Below, in pieces: positions 5,426 to 13,027 of a stretch of DNA of 14,769 nucleotides. The DNA is from Escherichia coli. Lineage in GTDB: Bacteria > Pseudomonadota > Gammaproteobacteria > Enterobacterales > Enterobacteriaceae. The position numbers and the translations under genes are program-made. The notes under the pieces are model-generated. The model made no database searches, was not told the DNA's origin, and was given only the letters and a program-made list of their open reading frames with translations. Where the stretch lies: NCBI GenBank assembly GCA_005397905.1, contig GCA_005397905.1_4318.1; one strand, given 5' to 3'. Numbering within the stretch: the stretch's first letter is position 1; each line of letters starts with the position of its first letter.

Positions 5426-5980
5426 ATGACCAAATTGTTTATACTGAATGGGCCAGCTGGGGTCGGCAAAGATACAATTGCTGACGTCATGGTTAGTTCT
5501 GGCGCTTGCTGTGAGAAGGTTTCTTTTAAGTCACCCGTGTTTGATGTGGCTAAGGGTATGTTATCAAGCGATGAATTTGATTGGTTTATTGAAAACTACA
5601 ACAATAGAGACGAGAAAGATAAACCTCAGAAAATTCTCGGAGGTAAAACTATTCGAGAGTTTATGATATGGATTAGCGAATCAGTAATGAAACCTGTTTT
5701 TGGTAATGATGTCTTCGGCAGGAGATTGGCTAGTTCACTTGGTGATGGTTGCTATATTTGTGCTGACGGTGGATTTGCTAGCGAGATTGAGCCACTGATC
5801 GACGCTGGTGTTAAGGTCACGTTAATCAGGTTGCATAGGGCAGGGTACACATTTTATGGCGATAGTCGCTCATATATTCACGGGGTGTGTGAAAGAGAGA
5901 TTGATGTTCATGTTGTTGATGGTGATATTAATGGAACATCAGCATTGGTAAGGCACGTAATAAATAGCACGAATTGCTAA
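5426..5980 (+). CDS. deoxynucleoside monophosphate kinase-like P-loop kinase
   Basis: 184 aa; Walker A LNGPAGVGKDT; the N-terminal stretch KLFILNGPAGVGKDTIADVMVS resembles the N-terminus of the T4 gene 1 dNMP kinase as I recall it. GGAGA RBS. Protein ends ...NSTNC with the stop TAA supplied by a TTGCTAA element. Confidence 0.65.
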   Translation: MTKLFILNGPAGVGKDTIADVMVSSGACCEKVSFKSPVFDVAKGMLSSDEFDWFIENYNNRDEKDKPQKILGGKTIREFMIWISESVMKPVFGNDVFGRRLASSLGDGCYICADGGFASEIEPLIDAGVKVTLIRLHRAGYTFYGDSRSYIHGVCEREIDVHVVDGDINGTSALVRHVINSTNC

Positions 5981-7774: not shown

Positions 7775-9358
7775 TTACCCCAGCAGTCGCGGATTAATGT
7801 AAACCTTATCACCAATCAGGCAGGTGTAGTTTTTCTCATCAAGCATCGGAAGTAAATGGTCTTTAATCTTAGCCATTACGCCAGCCTGACCCTCAAACGG
7901 CCTAACCTTGCGTGCTGATTCATATAGTGAACGAAGTCCTACAACGCCCTTACTGTTCTTTCCTTGCTTAATCAATATGTCAATTAACTTGTTCATCTCT
8001 GCATTATCGCCAGCGTGACCAGCCGAACTAGCAGCAGAAAGGTAAGTTTTACTTTGTTCGTAAAACATGATAATTGCCTCTTGCATTGTCTCTAGGTCAA
8101 TTTGCCTTGACTTCAATGGCCGCTCATTATTCTTGCATGACCAGTTTCTTATTGTATGAAGAATTGCCGCCATTCGAATAACTTGCTTATCCATCTTGCC
8201 AAGAGCGCCACGCAGCATAGAGTGAGAGTATTTACCTCCATCCGCAAGGTGCGGCTCCATATCCTGGCGTGCTAGATTAAGATATCGCATAGCTGATTCT
8301 GAAATAGATAAATTAACTTGTGTTTCGTTCATAATGTTGTGAATCATTCTAAAGTAATCAGCTTTCAATTCGCCATCAACCGGTTCGTATGTCGACTCAC
8401 CTTTTTCATTAATAAAAACGCGATTTCCAATCATGGGGCGCTCCCTAACCAGCCAGAATCGCTCAGATACACCTATACCACGAGCACCAGCCTCCATAAT
8501 TGCATTGATTGTTTCATCCTGAGCTATTACAGCTATTGCGCCAAGCGCGGTAAACATCAAGTTGTTGTCAGCATTGGCGCGAGATATTGATATATTTCCA
8601 GAATCCCACGCCTTAAGAACTAACTCACTGTTTGTTTTCTTGCTGCCATCTCCGTAGGTCATCCCAAGCAATGAGTTAATTGCCGTTGCTTCGTCTGATA
8701 TTACCGCAAAGTTACCCTGTCGACTGTTTATTCGAGCCAGACCTTCAGGTGTTGTATCAGATACCGGAAAGACAATATCACACAGCTTTTCTAACTTCTC
8801 TTCTAAATCCTCTTTCTCCTCAAACAATGACGCCATTTCGGATGGCGACTTCTCCTGCTTCATCTCTTTCGCCAGCGCTGATAGCTTGGCCATAATCTTT
8901 TTTCTTTCACGCTTTCGCTGGTCATTGATTCGCTCAACCTCGGCTACCATTGGAGCTATTGCGAGTGAGTTAATGGCTGACTTACCAGTCGATGGTGGCT
9001 GGCTGGTTACTACGTACAGTGAGGTTGGTTGCTGCGTTCCGTGATACTCAACAGTAAAACGCCCTAGCATGGCAGCGGAAATACACCCCAGGAAATGCAT
9101 GTATGCGGAAGACTCTGGGAACTGAACAGATCGAGCGATATTGGATGAGAGTTTGCCAACAACATCAATATCATTTCCGAGTGAGATTACGGGATACTTG
9201 TCATTTGCAGCATCAATCTCCACTGGTGCTTTCCAGAATGATTGAGACTGGCGATAGCCATTTGCATTAATGGCGACTCGCAGTGGTGGGAGGTTGTCTG
9301 CGGCAGCAATTGCCATAACCTGTTCAACAGATAGTTTATCTTCGTTGAAATCAAACAT
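7775..9358 (-). CDS. P-loop NTPase of unknown function (527 aa), RecA/DnaB-like Walker A
   Basis: Walker A-like VVTSQPPSTGKSAI (about residues 115-128), Walker B-like FAVISDE (about 217-223), a highly charged predicted helix between them; GGAGAG RBS. N-terminal 43 aa and C-terminal 55 aa are homologous to the 181-aa ORF at 12482-13027. Confidence 0.8.
   Translation of the reverse strand: MFDFNEDKLSVEQVMAIAAADNLPPLRVAINANGYRQSQSFWKAPVEIDAANDKYPVISLGNDIDVVGKLSSNIARSVQFPESSAYMHFLGCISAAMLGRFTVEYHGTQQPTSLYVVTSQPPSTGKSAINSLAIAPMVAEVERINDQRKRERKKIMAKLSALAKEMKQEKSPSEMASLFEEKEDLEEKLEKLCDIVFPVSDTTPEGLARINSRQGNFAVISDEATAINSLLGMTYGDGSKKTNSELVLKAWDSGNISISRANADNNLMFTALGAIAVIAQDETINAIMEAGARGIGVSERFWLVRERPMIGNRVFINEKGESTYEPVDGELKADYFRMIHNIMNETQVNLSISESAMRYLNLARQDMEPHLADGGKYSHSMLRGALGKMDKQVIRMAAILHTIRNWSCKNNERPLKSRQIDLETMQEAIIMFYEQSKTYLSAASSAGHAGDNAEMNKLIDILIKQGKNSKGVVGLRSLYESARKVRPFEGQAGVMAKIKDHLLPMLDEKNYTCLIGDKVYINPRLLG
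9233..9262. repeat. 30-nt perfect inverted repeat, copy A (inside the NTPase gene)
   Basis: rc of 9233-9262 = AATGGCTATCGCCAGTCTCAATCATTCTGG, identical to 12584-12613, while flanking synonymous sites have diverged. Confidence 0.9.
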
Positions 9359-11067: not shown

Positions 11068-11250
11068 TTACATGTGTTTCAGGTAGAAAGCGATTTCTTT
11101 AATGTTGTCTTCTGGATGAGCCTTCACGACTACCGCTAACATCTTCTCAACCAGAGTCTTGCTGCTCTCAGGGTTATAACCTTCCTGAACCAGTAGGGCG
11201 ATAGTGTTTTCGACGGTGACTGGTGAGTTTTTGTTGATGCGCTTAGCCAT
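11068..11250 (-). CDS. hypothetical protein (60 aa)
   Basis: First gene of the leftward operon; AAGGA RBS; leader CATCGAAACGACACGCACTAAAGGAAACC. Confidence 0.5.
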   Translation of the reverse strand: MAKRINKNSPVTVENTIALLVQEGYNPESSKTLVEKMLAVVVKAHPEDNIKEIAFYLKHM

Positions 11251-11287
11251 GATGGTTTCCTTTAGTGCGTGTCGTTTCGATGAGGTA

Positions 11288-11331
11288 ATAATAGCAAATC
11301 ACAGTCTTTTGATTATTAGCAAAAAGTGCTA
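11288..11331 (-). promoter_or_regulatory. TAGCAC-type promoter-like element
   Basis: Minus strand TAGCAC-TTT-TTGCTA (plus 11331-11317), 23 bp, TATTAT (plus 11293-11288). Confidence 0.5.
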
Positions 11332-11357
11332 TTCGTTAGATTTATGTATTGTTGCAG

Positions 11358-11418
11358 ATATTGCAATGATTCACATGACTATTGCACATATAGCAATATT
11401 GCTTCCGATGCAATGATG
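11358..11418. promoter_or_regulatory. cluster of ATTGCAAT-type palindromic operator-like sites
   Basis: ATATTGCAATGAT (11358-11370), ATTGCACATATAGCAAT (11381-11397) and GATGCAATGATG (11407-11418) share TTGCA / TGCAAT half-sites. Confidence 0.35.
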
Positions 11419-11419
11419 T

Positions 11420-11502
11420 TTTTGATTGTTGCGAAAAGTGAAATGAAGTGGTGATTGAGTGAATGAAGGATTGATGGACTACCATACAAGTTGATTTTGA
11501 TT
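11420..11502. repeat. direct-repeat array with GATTG core (five copies) plus TGAA(A)TGAAG repeats
   Basis: TTGATT/GATTGA at 11422, 11453, 11469, 11491 and 11497; TGAAATGAAG (11439-11448) and TGAATGAAGG (11460-11469). Confidence 0.4.
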
Positions 11503-11645
11503 CTGGCTGAGCCATTTTGAGCATACGCGTTATAAAAGTTATGCCGTGTGGATGCGCCAGCTCCCCGCGGGAATCATGTACGCCTATCACGCTAAATTAC
11601 GCAATGGTTACATAATAATATCTATATATATCAACCATTTAGTAA

Positions 11646-11666
11646 TATTATTATTATTATTATTAT
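11646..11666. repeat. (TAT)7 trinucleotide microsatellite in an AT-rich tract
   Basis: Seven uninterrupted TAT units at 11646-11666, flanked by (TA)n and further AT-rich sequence. Confidence 0.8.
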
Positions 11667-11726
11667 ATACGTGTATATAATGTAGATAGTGGATATTGGA
11701 TATTGCGATAGTTTTCTATGATTTTT

Positions 11727-11762
11727 TCCTACACTTGTAGGAATGGTACTACACTGTAGGAA
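11727..11762. promoter_or_regulatory. two adjacent palindromic operator-like sites sharing a TGTAGGA half-site
   Basis: TCCTACA-CT-TGTAGGA (11727-11742) and CTACA-C-TGTAGG (11749-11760), centres about 21 bp apart. Confidence 0.4.
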
Positions 11763-11891
11763 TAAATAGGCATATATGGGCCAATCCACCATAAAAACTG
11801 ATGTACAAGCTGTACACGGTTTTACATTGAGCTATATCTGGGGTTGTGAGCTGAAAAGCGTAAATAAATTGAATTAAACCATGAATAACAC

Positions 11892-11920
11892 TTGATAACA
11901 TGTAACCGCGATGATATTAT
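11892..11920 (+). promoter_or_regulatory. canonical sigma70 promoter with extended -10 (TTGATA-17-TGaTATTAT)
   Basis: -35 TTGATA 11892-11897, 17-bp spacer, TG at 11912-11913, -10 TATTAT 11915-11920; about 40 nt upstream of the ATG at 11961 (CAGGAG RBS). Confidence 0.65.
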
Positions 11921-11960
11921 GCACCCATCTTAACGAAGGAAACCAATCAGGAGTATATCT

Positions 11961-12482
11961 ATGTCAAATCGCATTCAACCAGTAAGCCTTGGTGATGTTA
12001 TCCGCTACATGGCTAAGCAGGCGCTTAAGGCCGACAATCGGACTTTCCATGTTCCAATCCACCTGATAGCTCGCCAGGTTTACGGGCTAACGTCTGATGA
12101 TATTGGTCGAATCAGCGCTGAGGATCTCGAGAGTGGCGGCAAATACAGTTTGGCAAAGTTGAAGGCTTCATATGTCTCTAACACAGTTGCCAGGATGCCA
12201 GAGATTCAGGAGGCGAACGTTCGGGCTAAGCTGTCAATCAAGGACGGAGACTTTGGGGATGATGTTGATGTTCGATGCGCATACATCACCTTGGTCGATG
12301 GGGCAATACAGACAGGAAAGAGAGTGATGGCCAACAACCAGGTAGCCGATAAGGCTGTAAGCGACTTTAAGGCTAGAATCCTCAAGCTGATGCCATCAGT
12401 GACTGAGTTTGAAGGTGATGAGATTACCGGAGCCATCAAAGCAATTAAGATGTACCAGGAAATGATTAAGGAGGCAAAATAA
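11961..12482 (+). CDS. hypothetical protein (173 aa), first gene behind the canonical promoter
   Basis: ATG with CAGGAG RBS; no recognisable motif. Confidence 0.65.
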   Translation: MSNRIQPVSLGDVIRYMAKQALKADNRTFHVPIHLIARQVYGLTSDDIGRISAEDLESGGKYSLAKLKASYVSNTVARMPEIQEANVRAKLSIKDGDFGDDVDVRCAYITLVDGAIQTGKRVMANNQVADKAVSDFKARILKLMPSVTEFEGDEITGAIKAIKMYQEMIKEAK

Positions 12483-13027
12483 TGGGGATGTTTGATTTTA
12501 ACGAAGATAAGCTAACTAATGATGAGATTATGAAGATTGCCATGCGGGATGGACTTCCTCCGCTACGGGTTGCAATCAACGCTAATGGCTATCGCCAGTC
12601 TCAATCATTCTGGTGTAGTGTTGAGGAGTTGCTCAGCGCAAAGCTCAACAGCAAGTCTGGCGTAGTTATGTGTAAGATTCACGGACAGAGCAGGAATGGC
12701 AAGGGGGTTGTCGGAATTCGATCAACATATGAAGCGCTGAGAAAGGTCAAGCCATTCGCCGGACTCAACGGAGTCATGCATGACCTGAAAAATAACATCC
12801 TGCCATCGTTACAGGACGCAGGAATCATCTGCTTAATCGGGGATAAGATTTACGTGCATCCATACATCGTTGGCATGCATGCGATAGAAGTTGAAGAGTG
12901 GTGCGACACCTGGGCTGTTGATGAGCATGCTAGTAGACTACCATACCACTTACGGTACGACGAAGATGAGGTAGAGAAGGCGATTGAGTTCTACCGGAAA
13001 GCTAAATCACTCCTGACCGGTAAATAG
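12482..13027 (+). CDS. hypothetical protein (181 aa), truncated paralog of the 527-aa NTPase lacking the P-loop core
   Basis: MFDFNEDKL...LPPLRVAINANGYRQSQSFW matches the NTPase N-terminus (20 consecutive residues identical); KGVVGIRSTYEALRKVKPF...CLIGDKIYVHP is about 55% identical to the NTPase C-terminus; no Walker motifs. AAGGAGG RBS; stop TAG is part of a TAGCAC element. Confidence 0.75.
   Translation: MGMFDFNEDKLTNDEIMKIAMRDGLPPLRVAINANGYRQSQSFWCSVEELLSAKLNSKSGVVMCKIHGQSRNGKGVVGIRSTYEALRKVKPFAGLNGVMHDLKNNILPSLQDAGIICLIGDKIYVHPYIVGMHAIEVEEWCDTWAVDEHASRLPYHLRYDEDEVEKAIEFYRKAKSLLTGK
12584..12613. repeat. 30-nt perfect inverted repeat, copy B (inside the paralog gene)
   Basis: AATGGCTATCGCCAGTCTCAATCATTCTGG at 12584-12613, in inverted orientation relative to 9233-9262. 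Confidence 0.9.

What the first reader, a model, noticed from the sequence alone, without database searches (positions are those of the whole stretch)
11251..11960. A 0.7-kb non-coding control region with direct repeats, operator-like palindromes and an AT-rich microsatellite
Between the divergent operons lie a TAGCAC element reading left (11288-11331), ATTGCAAT-type palindromes (11358-11418), five GATTG-core direct repeats (11420-11502), a CCGCGG-centred GC block (about 11550-11560), an AT-rich tract with (TAT)7 (11646-11666), a tandem GGATATT x2 (11691-11704), two TGTAGGA-half-site palindromes (11727-11762), TGTACA x2 (11813-11826) and a canonical extended -10 promoter reading right (11892-11920). 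Direct repeats next to an AT-rich unwinding-prone tract and operators are the classic layout of a replication origin combined with a transcriptional switch. No convincing ORF fits here.
Basis: partly seen in the sequence, partly recalled or inferred. Interest (0 to 1): 0.6.

Follow-up and report, generated by a model that had tools for sequence, protein, structure and literature searches.

The report
Phage packaging-start and divergent promoter region
This 0.7-kb gene-free stretch of a T1/Rtp-like coliphage holds two outward-facing promoters, the probable DNA-packaging start site, and an AT-rich repeat module present twice per genome in relatives, which is a testable candidate for the still-unknown replication origin of T1-like phages.

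Summary
Window 11251-11960 is a conserved non-coding gap between divergent operons of an Rtp-like Drexlerviridae phage, and almost every listed element is present.

It splits into four parts.
1. 11288-11331 (minus strand) is a copy of the family-wide TAGCAC element. Here it behaves as a promoter box at a fixed distance from a -10 hexamer.
2. 11336-11475 is a near-invariant cluster of TTGCA, GATTGTTGC and GCAATGA repeats. Coordinate 1 of the T1, TLS and Rtp reference genomes falls in the equivalent repeat cluster. So do the ends of several other records. This makes it most likely the headful packaging start (pac), not origin iterons.
3. 11521-11690 and 11822-11842 form a module of three phased TACGC repeats, an IHF-like site, the (TAT)7 tract and tandem 9-mers. 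The module recurs in the cor/recE gap of relatives. It is the only part with real origin-like anatomy, and its function is untested.
4. 11892-11920 is a conserved sigma-70 promoter reading right.

The layout is broadly already known for T1 and TLS. The duplicated module is apparently undescribed.

The parts
11251..11287 (-). 5' leader of the leftward operon. It contains the conserved start-of-transcript motif CATCGAAACGA (11282 to 11272) and the ribosome-binding site AAGGA upstream of the ATG at 11250.
   Evidence: Sequence. The same CATCGAAAC motif follows the -10 hexamer of other TAGCAC promoters in the window.
11288..11331 (-). Leftward promoter P_L of the TAGCAC class. On the minus strand it reads TAGCAC (11331-11326), N3, TTGCTA (11322-11317), 23 nt, then the -10 hexamer TATTAT (11293-11288). 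The predicted start is the A at about 11281.
   Evidence: It matches the TLS 21-nt repeat aaATAGCACnnnTTGnTAAAA. It is near-invariant in 14 relatives.
11336..11475 (.). Probable pac (packaging initiation) region. Its parts are unit a AGATTTATGTATTGTTGC (11338-11355), ATTGCAATGA (11360-11369), the palindrome AGCAATATTGCT (11392-11403), GCAATGA (11410), unit b GATGTTTTTGATTGTTGC (11414-11432), and GATTG at 11453 and 11469.
   Evidence: T1 coordinate 1 (GATT|GTTGCA) corresponds to window 11351. ESCO41 and XT34 start at 11352. Rtp and OzMSK start at 11392. Rogue1 ends at 11397. T1 annotates its terminal redundancy as 1-2800. The TLS start equals its restriction-mapped pac end. The block is 85-96% identical in 130 records and usually occurs once per genome.
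11476..11520 (.). Variable spacer with degenerate GATTT/GATTC repeats. The ends of three related records fall here.
   Evidence: The SU57 end, set by PhageTerm plus a coverage step, corresponds to 11498. ZL19 ends at 11518 and CEB_EC3a at 11517.
11521..11690 (+). Module that occurs twice per genome in relatives. It comprises TACGCGT (11524), TACGC / CACGC / TACGC at 11579, 11588 and 11598, GGTTACAT (11605), the IHF-like site TATCAACCATTTA (11629-11641), (TAT)7 (11646-11666), and the tandem 9-mers TGTATATAA and TGTAGATAG (11672-11689).
   Evidence: Its second copy lies in the cor/recE gap of JulesPiccard (82% identity over 115 nt, E 8e-26). That copy is 95-99% conserved across genera. The IHF consensus matches only twice in the window. 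This is the most AT-rich 60-bp and 100-bp stretch of the window. The 9-mers change in step between phages.
11685..11710 (+). Period-7 tandem repeat, (G)GATATT about 3.6 times.
   Evidence: TRF. It is poorly conserved outside the closest relatives.
11726..11762 (.). Three half-sites, TTCCTACA / TGTAGGAA / TGTAGGAA, forming an operator-like palindrome plus one direct repeat, or alternatively a hairpin.
   Evidence: As single-stranded DNA it folds with z = -5.2. Phage 12210I carries a compensated variant, TTCTGACA/TGTCAGAA. The element is absent from Rtp, IME542, C119, Phleasolo, DTL and Phagiculus.
11802..11816 (.). TGTACA twice, 9 bp apart.
   Evidence: These are the only two copies in the 14.8-kb window.
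11822..11842 (+). TTACATTGAGCTATATCTGGG, the second block shared with the cor/recE gap. It contains an AGCTATAGCT-type palindrome.
   Evidence: 20 of 21 bases are identical to JulesPiccard 22605-22625, and the order relative to the AT module is the same.
11892..11920 (+). Rightward sigma-70 promoter P_R: TTGATA, 17 nt, TG-a-TATTAT. The predicted start is the A at about 11927.
   Evidence: 10 of 12 positions match, plus the TG. The -35 and -10 columns are conserved in 14 relatives.
11926..11960 (+). Leader of the rightward operon: CATCTTAACGAAGG (11926-11939) and the ribosome-binding site GGAG (11950-11953), upstream of the ATG at 11961.
   Evidence: The leader resembles that of the TAGCAC promoters.

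Best explanation
The region is the pac-proximal divergent control region of a T1/Rtp-like headful-packaging phage. It is a composite of four cis elements.

(a) Leftward promoter P_L (11288-11331, minus strand). This is a TAGCAC-class promoter. The 15-bp palindrome TAGCA-N5-TGCTA sits 21-23 nt upstream of a TATAAT-like -10 hexamer, centred near -42. It probably acts as the binding site of a phage-encoded dimeric activator that stands in for a -35 element.

(b) The pac site (11336-11475). This is a near-invariant cluster of TTGCA, GATTGTTGC and GCAATGA repeats. The P22-gp3-type small terminase would assemble here on concatemeric DNA. The first cut would fall around 11351-11392, with some ends up to about 11500. 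Headful packaging would then run rightwards, so the rightward early operon lies in the terminal redundancy.

(c) A 170-bp module plus a 21-bp block. The module has phased TACGC repeats, an IHF-like site, a (TAT)n AT tract and tandem 9-mers. In relatives the genome carries it twice, each time between a leftward TAGCAC promoter and a rightward sigma-70 promoter. Its role is architectural, regulatory or origin-like, and is unresolved.

(d) Rightward promoter P_R (11892-11920). This is a canonical extended -10 sigma-70 promoter that host RNA polymerase can use immediately after infection.

What is shown: the anatomy, the conservation, the duplication, and the position of related genome termini.

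What is inferred: terminase binding, the cut positions in this particular phage, activator dependence of P_L, and the timing of both promoters.
For: Location of related genome ends:
- Coordinate 1 of T1, TLS and Rtp lies in this same gap, 538-588 nt upstream of the first rightward gene.
- T1 annotates 1-2800 as its repeat region.
- TLS coordinate 1 reproduces the published restriction map of its pac end. HindIII lies at 5876 and EcoRV at 2733, against 5,882 bp and about 2.7 kb in the paper.
- T1 starts at GATT|GTTGCA. ESCO41 and XT34 start at ATTG|TTGCAG. These are the same motif, one nucleotide apart, corresponding to window 11351/11352.
- The SU57 end, set by PhageTerm plus a step in read coverage, corresponds to 11498.
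- Six of 43 separate assembly records of one phage group open within 300 bp of the block.

Conservation and uniqueness of the pac block:
- It is found once per genome in nearly all of 130 records, at 85-96% identity. The adjacent DUF7174 gene falls to 31% amino-acid identity in the same phages.
- It is absent from the second copy of the control module.
- The small terminase of the close relative JulesPiccard is related to P22 gp3 (T1 annotation).

Promoters:
- All 12 TAGCAC copies have a -10-like hexamer 21-23 nt downstream of the box. The exact-match copies are followed by a CATC-type leader, CATCGAAAC in four of them.
- P_R scores 10 of 12 plus the TG, and its hexamer columns are conserved.

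Non-coding status.
Against: - No physical end data exist for this phage. Many record starts are conventions copied from T1 or Rtp, and I could not retrieve how the Rtp and ESCO41 starts were chosen.
- Record ends scatter over about 170 bp (11323-11518).
- The final TLS pac assignment rested partly on a 6-nt resemblance to P22 pac. The best match to the 22-nt P22 pac sequence in this window is only 15 of 22.
- The pac block is more conserved than the small terminase across Nouzillyvirus: about 85-90% nucleotide identity against 56% amino-acid identity. A more conserved binder is therefore possible.
- The TTGCA-type half-sites resemble the TAGCA/TGCTA promoter box, so the cluster could be a regulator-binding array.
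- The AT-rich microsatellite could also explain why assemblies break nearby.
Confidence: 0.6

Rival explanations
1. Replication origin, a refinement of the first reader's idea. The module 11521-11690 would be an iteron-type origin. A phage initiator, for example the DUF3987 replicative helicase with its C-terminal winged-helix domain or its truncated paralogue at 12482-13027, would bind the phased TACGC and GTTACA repeats. IHF would bend the DNA at 11629-11641. The (TAT)n tract would melt. This reading is compatible with pac lying next to it.
For: - Three TACGC-type repeats lie 9-10 bp apart, against 0.11 expected (P about 2e-4). In the second copy the spacing is exactly 10 bp.
- A perfect WATCAANNNNTTR match is one of only two in the window.
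- This is the most AT-rich 60-bp and 100-bp stretch of the window. In JulesPiccard and T1 the two most AT-rich 100-bp windows of the whole genome fall in the two gaps corresponding to the two module copies.
- The module is conserved at 95-99% across genera.
- In T1, 7 of 24 TGTAAC motifs flank the AT tract of the cor/recE gap.
- The published TLS and SU57 analyses found no origin.
- DUF3987 proteins are considered replicative helicases with a winged-helix domain.
Against: - The repeats are only 5-6 bp long and number three.
- DnaA boxes are not enriched.
- The module is duplicated. The copy richer in repeats and closer to the recombination and replication genes is the other one, outside this window.
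- AT-rich DNA between divergent promoters is common without any origin function.
- No replication data exist.
- From my own recollection only, T1 concatemers form by recombination and T1 does not need the host initiation genes.
Confidence: 0.3
2. Purely transcriptional control region. The 11336-11475 cluster would be an array of half-sites (TTGCA / TGCAA) for the same regulator that binds the TAGCA-N5-TGCTA promoter box. It would tune P_L. The genome-record termini here would be only convention or assembly artefact.
For: - The palindrome AGCAATATTGCT is TAGCA-N4-TGCT, close to the promoter box.
- The cluster directly abuts P_L and is conserved together with it.
- Several record starts were probably copied from Rtp or T1.
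Against: - The T1 and TLS pac ends were mapped experimentally to this gap.
- SU57 shows a step in read coverage here.
- The other TAGCAC promoters, including the one in the otherwise parallel cor/recE gap, lack such an array.
Confidence: 0.15
3. The gap hides a small protein gene or a small RNA.
For: - ORFs of 42 aa (11326-11454, plus strand) and 82 aa (11590-11342, minus strand) recur in several relatives.
- Some annotators called small genes here.
- The 11715-11775 stretch folds unusually well (z = -5.2).
Against: - Both ORFs carry in-frame stops in 3-6 of 14 relatives, and there is no third-position bias.
- The annotated ORFs differ in strand and position between records.
- Rfam gave no match even at E up to 1.
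- The hairpin is not followed by a U-run on either strand.
Confidence: 0.05

Closest known systems
pac regions of coliphages T1 and TLS (Drexlerviridae headful packaging start)
   Same: It has the same position, in the non-coding gap between the leftward and rightward small-gene operons and about 540-610 nt upstream of the first rightward gene. It shares motifs: GATTGTTGC twice and GCAATGATTG with T1, and GATTG/AGATTT with TLS. A leftward TAGCAC element lies to its left and an AT-rich tract to its right.
   Different: Apart from these short motifs the sequence is not alignable with T1 or TLS. This lineage has about 47 extra nucleotides of TTGCA palindromes between the two GATTGTTGC units. No end mapping exists for this phage.
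P22/Sf6-type pac recognised by a gp3-like small terminase; multi-repeat pac sites of P1 and SPP1 (my own knowledge of those systems)
   Same: The small terminase is gp3-like. Packaging is headful and in series. The recognition region contains clustered short repeats, and possible ends are spread over roughly 100-150 bp.
   Different: P22 pac lies inside the terminase gene. Here it lies in an intergenic promoter region, about 8 kb upstream of the small-terminase gene in T1. The 22-bp P22 pac sequence is not significantly matched.
TLS 21-nt intergenic repeat aaATAGCACnnnTTGnTAAAA (PMC11447400)
   Same: The 11317-11331 element matches the consensus and points in the direction of transcription.
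   Different: The TLS paper leaves its function open. Here every copy is tied to a -10 hexamer 21-23 nt downstream, and the exact copies to a conserved start-of-transcript motif. This argues for a promoter with an activator site at about -42. That is an inference, not a test.
Iteron-type origins with two copies per genome: SPP1 oriL/oriR, P4 ori/crr, lambda ori (my own knowledge)
   Same: Short phased direct repeats lie next to an AT-rich tract and an IHF-like site. The module is present at two loci in the same orientation.
   Different: There are only three 5-6-bp repeats, no known initiator, and no replication evidence. The module sits between divergent promoters rather than inside or beside an initiator gene.

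Membership tests
Drexlerviridae (T1/TLS-type) pac region | It lies in the non-coding gap between the divergent small-gene operons. | tested here: met
   The gap architecture is conserved in 14 relatives and in T1, TLS and Rtp.
Drexlerviridae (T1/TLS-type) pac region | Experimentally placed packaging ends of reference phages map to the homologous sequence. | tested here: met
   T1 coordinate 1, with its repeat_region 1-2800, corresponds to window 11351. TLS coordinate 1 equals its mapped pac end (HindIII 5876, EcoRV 2733). The SU57 coverage-step end corresponds to 11498.
Drexlerviridae (T1/TLS-type) pac region | The genome encodes a P22-gp3-like small terminase. | tested here: inconclusive
   This holds for the close relatives JulesPiccard and T1. 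The terminase genes lie outside this window.
Drexlerviridae (T1/TLS-type) pac region | Virion DNA of this phage shows a physical end, or a submolar pac fragment, at this site. | not testable with these tools
   This needs virion DNA reads or restriction mapping.
Iteron-type replication origin | It has an array of direct repeats in helical phase. | tested here: met
   TACGC / CACGC / TACGC lie at 11579, 11588 and 11598. Copy 2 has exact 10-bp spacing. The expected count is 0.11. This is weak support, because the repeats are short and only three.
Iteron-type replication origin | It has an adjacent AT-rich region that unwinds easily. | tested here: met
   11603-11702 is 82% A+T, the highest value in the window. 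The two corresponding gaps hold the two most AT-rich 100-bp stretches in JulesPiccard and T1.
Iteron-type replication origin | It has host-factor sites (DnaA boxes, IHF). | tested here: inconclusive
   The IHF core consensus matches at 11629-11641. DnaA boxes are not enriched: 56 found against 51 expected in the window, and only matches with two mismatches in the gap.
Iteron-type replication origin | It supports initiator binding and initiation or autonomous replication. | not testable with these tools
   No experimental data are available. The TLS and SU57 papers report that no origin was found.
Sigma-70 promoter with extended -10 | It has -35 and -10 hexamers 17 nt apart with an upstream TG. 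| tested here: met
   TTGATA-17-TATTAT with TG at 11912-11913. The columns are conserved. The transcription start has not been mapped.
TLS-type 21-nt repeat (TAGCAC element) | It matches the consensus ATAGCACnnnTTGnTAAAA, lies upstream of a gene, and points in the direction of transcription. | tested here: met
   On the minus strand, 11331-11313 reads TAGCACTTTTTGCTAATAA. All 12 copies in the window point the same way as the local genes.
Protein-coding gene or known RNA family | It has a conserved open frame with codon-like substitution, or an Rfam match. | tested here: not met

The most novel reading that the evidence does not exclude
The duplicated module (TACGC repeats, IHF-like site, (TAT)n tract and tandem 9-mers) is the long-sought replication origin of T1-like phages. 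It would exist as two copies, one beside pac and one in the cor/recE gap. It would be fired by the phage's split primase and DUF3987 helicase, in the manner of SPP1 oriL/oriR or P4 ori/crr. The pac-side copy would link replication physically to packaging initiation.
Probability: 0.25. Interest if true: 0.7.

Novelty: new member of a known kind. Interest (0 to 1): 0.45.

Why it matters
T1 is one of the classical T phages and a notorious laboratory and fermenter contaminant. Its replication origin, its promoter classes and the sequence determinants of its pac site have never been defined. The recent TLS and SU57 papers say so explicitly.

This analysis turns a vague "control region" into four delimited, testable elements:
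- A roughly 140-bp pac candidate with named motifs. This is useful for engineering transducing or packaging-deficient phages.
- Two promoter classes with predicted transcription starts.
- A 170-bp module present twice per genome. This is the best current candidate for an origin or a key architectural site.

Tried and rejected
- Rfam at gathering threshold and at E up to 1, and ARAGORN, found nothing.
- ORFs in the gap are not conserved as coding sequence.
- A DnaA-box scan showed no enrichment.
- The 22-nt P22 pac sequence has a best match of 15 of 22, which is not distinctive. The 8-mer AGATTTAT is unique in the window and nearly invariant in relatives, but is too short to carry weight.
- I tested whether the TGTAGGAA palindromes co-occur with the truncated helicase paralogue. 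They do not, because the paralogue is also present in C119, DTL, ESCO41 and IME542, which lack the palindromes.
- I modelled the neighbouring DUF7174 protein with AlphaFold (pLDDT 81.5) and ran Foldseek against the PDB. No match reached E below 0.03, so no DNA-binding fold could be assigned.
- PDB sequence searches with the helicase and its paralogue found nothing.
- I looked in lambda for the reported T1 packaging start between genes P and Q. I found a 13-nt exact match to the T1 cut site inside gene P (E 0.016). This cannot be tied to the old genetic mapping.
- The Rtp genome paper is not held in the library. The BASEL, SH6, KanT1, UDF157lw and OzMSK papers gave no pac coordinates. One literature search was too broad to be useful.
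- No conserved sigma-70 promoter could be placed inside the AT tract. The phiSITE promoters annotated there in CEB_EC3a are predictions only.
Full report
**What the window is.** The 14.8-kb window is 83-86% identical over its alignable parts (about two-thirds of its length) to Rtp-like phages of the family Drexlerviridae. These include JulesPiccard, Msk, Rtp and ZL19. It has the same gene order as JulesPiccard: SNF2-type helicase, VRR-NUC nuclease, lysis genes, then a leftward operon with a 527-aa DUF3987 helicase, then a rightward operon of small genes. The finding, 11251-11960, is the gap between the first leftward gene (11250..11068) and the first rightward gene (11961..12482). The equivalent gap is the largest non-coding stretch of the JulesPiccard genome.

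**Check of the observation.** Nearly every listed element is present.
- The TAGCAC element is present.
- ATTGCAAT and the 12-bp palindrome AGCAATATTGCT are present.
- (TAT)7 and a period-7 GATATTG repeat are present.
- The three TTCCTACA/TGTAGGAA half-sites are present.
- Two TGTACA copies are present. They are the only ones in the window.
- A TTGATA-17-TG-n-TATTAT promoter is present.

Three corrections apply. Only three GATTG copies are exact. CCGCGG lies at 11565-11570. TGTACA lies at 11802 and 11811.

Enrichment is real for TTGC/GCAA (8 against 1.24 expected in 100 bp) and for TACGC (3 against 0.11 expected). It is modest for GATTG.

The stretch is non-coding:
- Rfam and tRNA searches found nothing.
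- Substitutions show no codon periodicity, and the recurrent ORFs are broken by stops in relatives.

**Comparative anatomy.** I aligned the gap from 14 phages of three lineages: Braunvirinae, Rogunavirinae and Nouzillyvirus. Conservation is very uneven.
- 11316-11430 is almost invariant.
- 11521-11690 is well conserved in patches.
- 11690-11890 is variable.
- The -35, -10 and leader columns of the rightward promoter are conserved.
- The invariant block is 85-96% identical in 130 database records. The neighbouring DUF7174 gene drops to 31% amino-acid identity in the same phages. The block is therefore under direct selection as DNA.

**The leftward promoter.** The "TAGCAC element" is the 21-nt repeat aaATAGCACnnnTTGnTAAAA described for phage TLS. 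The TLS authors list its function as an open question.
- All 12 copies in the window share one layout.
- The layout is TAGCAC-N3-TTG(C/T)TAAA, then 21-23 nt, then a TATAAT-like hexamer.
- In the exact-match copies, 5-6 nt further on comes a CATC-type leader, which reads CATCGAAAC in four of them.
- TAGCA-N5-TGCTA is a palindrome centred near -42. The TTG lies too far from the -10 hexamer to act as a -35 element.
- I infer an activator-dependent promoter class.
- The copy in this finding occupies 11331 to 11288 on the minus strand, with a predicted start near 11281.
- The rightward promoter (11892-11920) is a normal sigma-70 promoter, yet it shares the leader motif CATCTTAACGAAGG.
It remains untested.

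**The repeat cluster is where related genomes begin.** Several independent lines place packaging ends here.
- Coordinate 1 of T1, TLS and Rtp falls inside this gap, 538, 588 and 545 nt upstream of the first rightward gene.
- T1 annotates 1-2800 as its repeat region, which is its terminal redundancy.
[quoted passage not shown] In the record, HindIII lies at 5876 and EcoRV at 2733. Coordinate 1 is therefore the mapped pac end, and packaging runs rightwards.
- T1 begins at GATT|GTTGCATGG. The motif GATTGTTGC occurs twice in T1. In the window, ATTGTTGC occurs at 11348 and 11425, and the second copy reads GATTGTTGC in full. In both phages it is followed by GCAATGA-type repeats.
- ESCO41 and XT34 begin at ATTG|TTGCAG, one nucleotide from the T1 position, which corresponds to window 11352.
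- Rtp and OzMSK begin at the palindrome (11392). Rogue1 ends at 11397. FP begins at 11323.
- The SU57 end was chosen from PhageTerm output at an abrupt change in read frequency. It corresponds to 11498. ZL19 and CEB_EC3a end at 11517-11518.
- Six of 43 separate assembly records of one phage group open within 300 bp of the block, against about 0.6 expected.
- The small terminase of these phages is related to P22 gp3.

Together these make 11336-11475 the probable pac region.

Several caveats apply.
- Several record starts are conventions.
- The method used for Rtp and ESCO41 is unknown to me.
- The AT-rich microsatellite could also break assemblies.
- The block is better conserved than the small terminase in Nouzillyvirus.
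- Its TTGCA half-sites resemble the promoter box, so a regulator array cannot be excluded.

**A module that occurs twice per genome.** The second most AT-rich gap of JulesPiccard lies between the cor-side genes and the exonuclease/Erf/SSB module. It contains the same sequence as window 11521-11690. Identity is 82% over 115 nt, E 8e-26. The 21-nt block TTACATTGAGCTATA(G/T)CTGGG (window 11822-11842) is there too, in the same order and orientation.

That gap has the same overall layout: a leftward TAGCAC promoter, the module, then a rightward sigma-70-like promoter with a CATCGAAAG leader. It lacks the pac block.

The second copy is 95-99% identical across Braunvirinae and Nouzillyvirus, and about 80% in Rogunavirinae. 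T1 shows the same pair of AT-rich gaps, with partial similarity between them.

The module contains:
- three TACGC-type repeats 9-10 bp apart;
- a perfect IHF core consensus, TATCAACCATTTA, which is one of two matches in the window;
- a (TAT)n run of 4.7-7.3 units in all 16 copies examined;
- two tandem 9-mers that change together between phages, for example ATGTAGATA twice in 50EP and ATGTATATC twice in Rtp.

**Is it an origin?** The module is the part of the finding that looks like an iteron origin. It is also the most AT-rich DNA in the window, and its counterparts are the most AT-rich in two complete genomes. No origin has been identified in T1-like phages. They encode a separate primase and a DUF3987 helicase, a class regarded as replicative and carrying a winged-helix domain.

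Four points count against it.
- The repeats are few and short.
- DnaA boxes are not enriched.
- The module is duplicated, and the copy richer in repeats lies elsewhere. In T1, 7 of 24 TGTAAC motifs lie in the cor/recE gap.
- AT-rich DNA between divergent promoters needs no origin to explain it.

I give it about 0.25-0.3.

**Remaining elements.** The TTCCTACA/TGTAGGAA triplet is present in only 8 of the 14 aligned relatives (9 of 17 sequences examined). It has one fully compensated variant, in phage 12210I. As single-stranded DNA it folds with z = -5.2. It is either an operator for a lineage-specific dimeric protein or a hairpin. It does not co-occur with the helicase paralogue. The GGATATT repeat, the CCGCGG block and the TGTACA pair are poorly conserved, and I assign them no function.

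**Verdict.** The region is a composite of a pac site and two promoters, homologous to the genome "ends" of T1, TLS and Rtp, plus a duplicated AT-rich module of unknown role. It is a new member of a known kind. The duplicated module and the promoter-class architecture are the parts that appear undescribed.

Noticed in passing
window 12482-13027 (+) versus 7775-9358 (-): The 181-aa second gene of the rightward operon is a cut-down paralogue of the 527-aa DUF3987 helicase. It keeps the N-terminal 51 aa (69% identity) and the C-terminal 95 aa (40% identity) and lacks the whole ATPase core. Homologues exist in most relatives but not in Rtp or Phagiculus. It could compete with or regulate the helicase at its DNA or protein partners.
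   Followed up: partly
window 207, 2708, 3401, 5314, 5965, 6177, 13025, 13655 (+); 9431, 10213, 10859, 11331 (-): Twelve TAGCAC elements share one architecture: the palindrome TAGCA-N5-TG(C/T)TA, then 21-23 nt, then a TATAAT-like hexamer. The exact-match copies continue with a CATC-type leader (CATCGAAAC in four). This looks like an activator-dependent promoter class, and may answer the question the TLS paper leaves open about its 21-nt repeat.
   Followed up: partly
L025 (JulesPiccard) 22290-22784; T1 29851-30378: A second copy of the AT-rich module lies in the cor/recE intergenic gap. It is 95-99% conserved across genera. In T1 this gap holds 7 of the genome's 24 TGTAAC motifs around its AT tract. 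It is an equally good or better origin candidate.
   Followed up: partly
whole window: GATC is strongly under-represented: 17 sites against 59.6 +/- 7.8 expected, and none in 11251-11960. By contrast, TLS DNA is reported to carry over 200 GATC sites and, like T1 DNA, to be adenine-methylated at GATC.
   Followed up: no
L020 (lambda) 39898-39910, inside gene P: The T1 packaging-cut sequence T|GTTGCATGGTG has a 13-nt exact match in lambda (E 0.016 in 6.5 kb). This is near where, as I recall, T1 was reported to start packaging lambda DNA, between genes P and Q. It may be coincidence.
   Followed up: partly
L005, L007, L013, L004 and CEB_EC3a: equivalents of window 11300-11900: Several database records annotate small 'hypothetical' or 'membrane' proteins inside this gap. 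They lie on different strands and at different positions, so they are probably over-calls.
   Followed up: partly
L025 22631-22978 (JulesPiccard bas03_0033): The annotated start lies upstream of a promoter-like TTGGAC-16-TATATA and a CATCGAAAG leader. An ATG at 22785, preceded by a ribosome-binding site, looks like the real start.
   Followed up: no
window 11961-12482 (+): The first rightward gene (DUF7174) holds the same position from TLS to Rtp-like phages, next to pac and inside the presumed terminal redundancy. A confident AlphaFold model (pLDDT 81.5) has no significant match in the PDB.
   Followed up: yes
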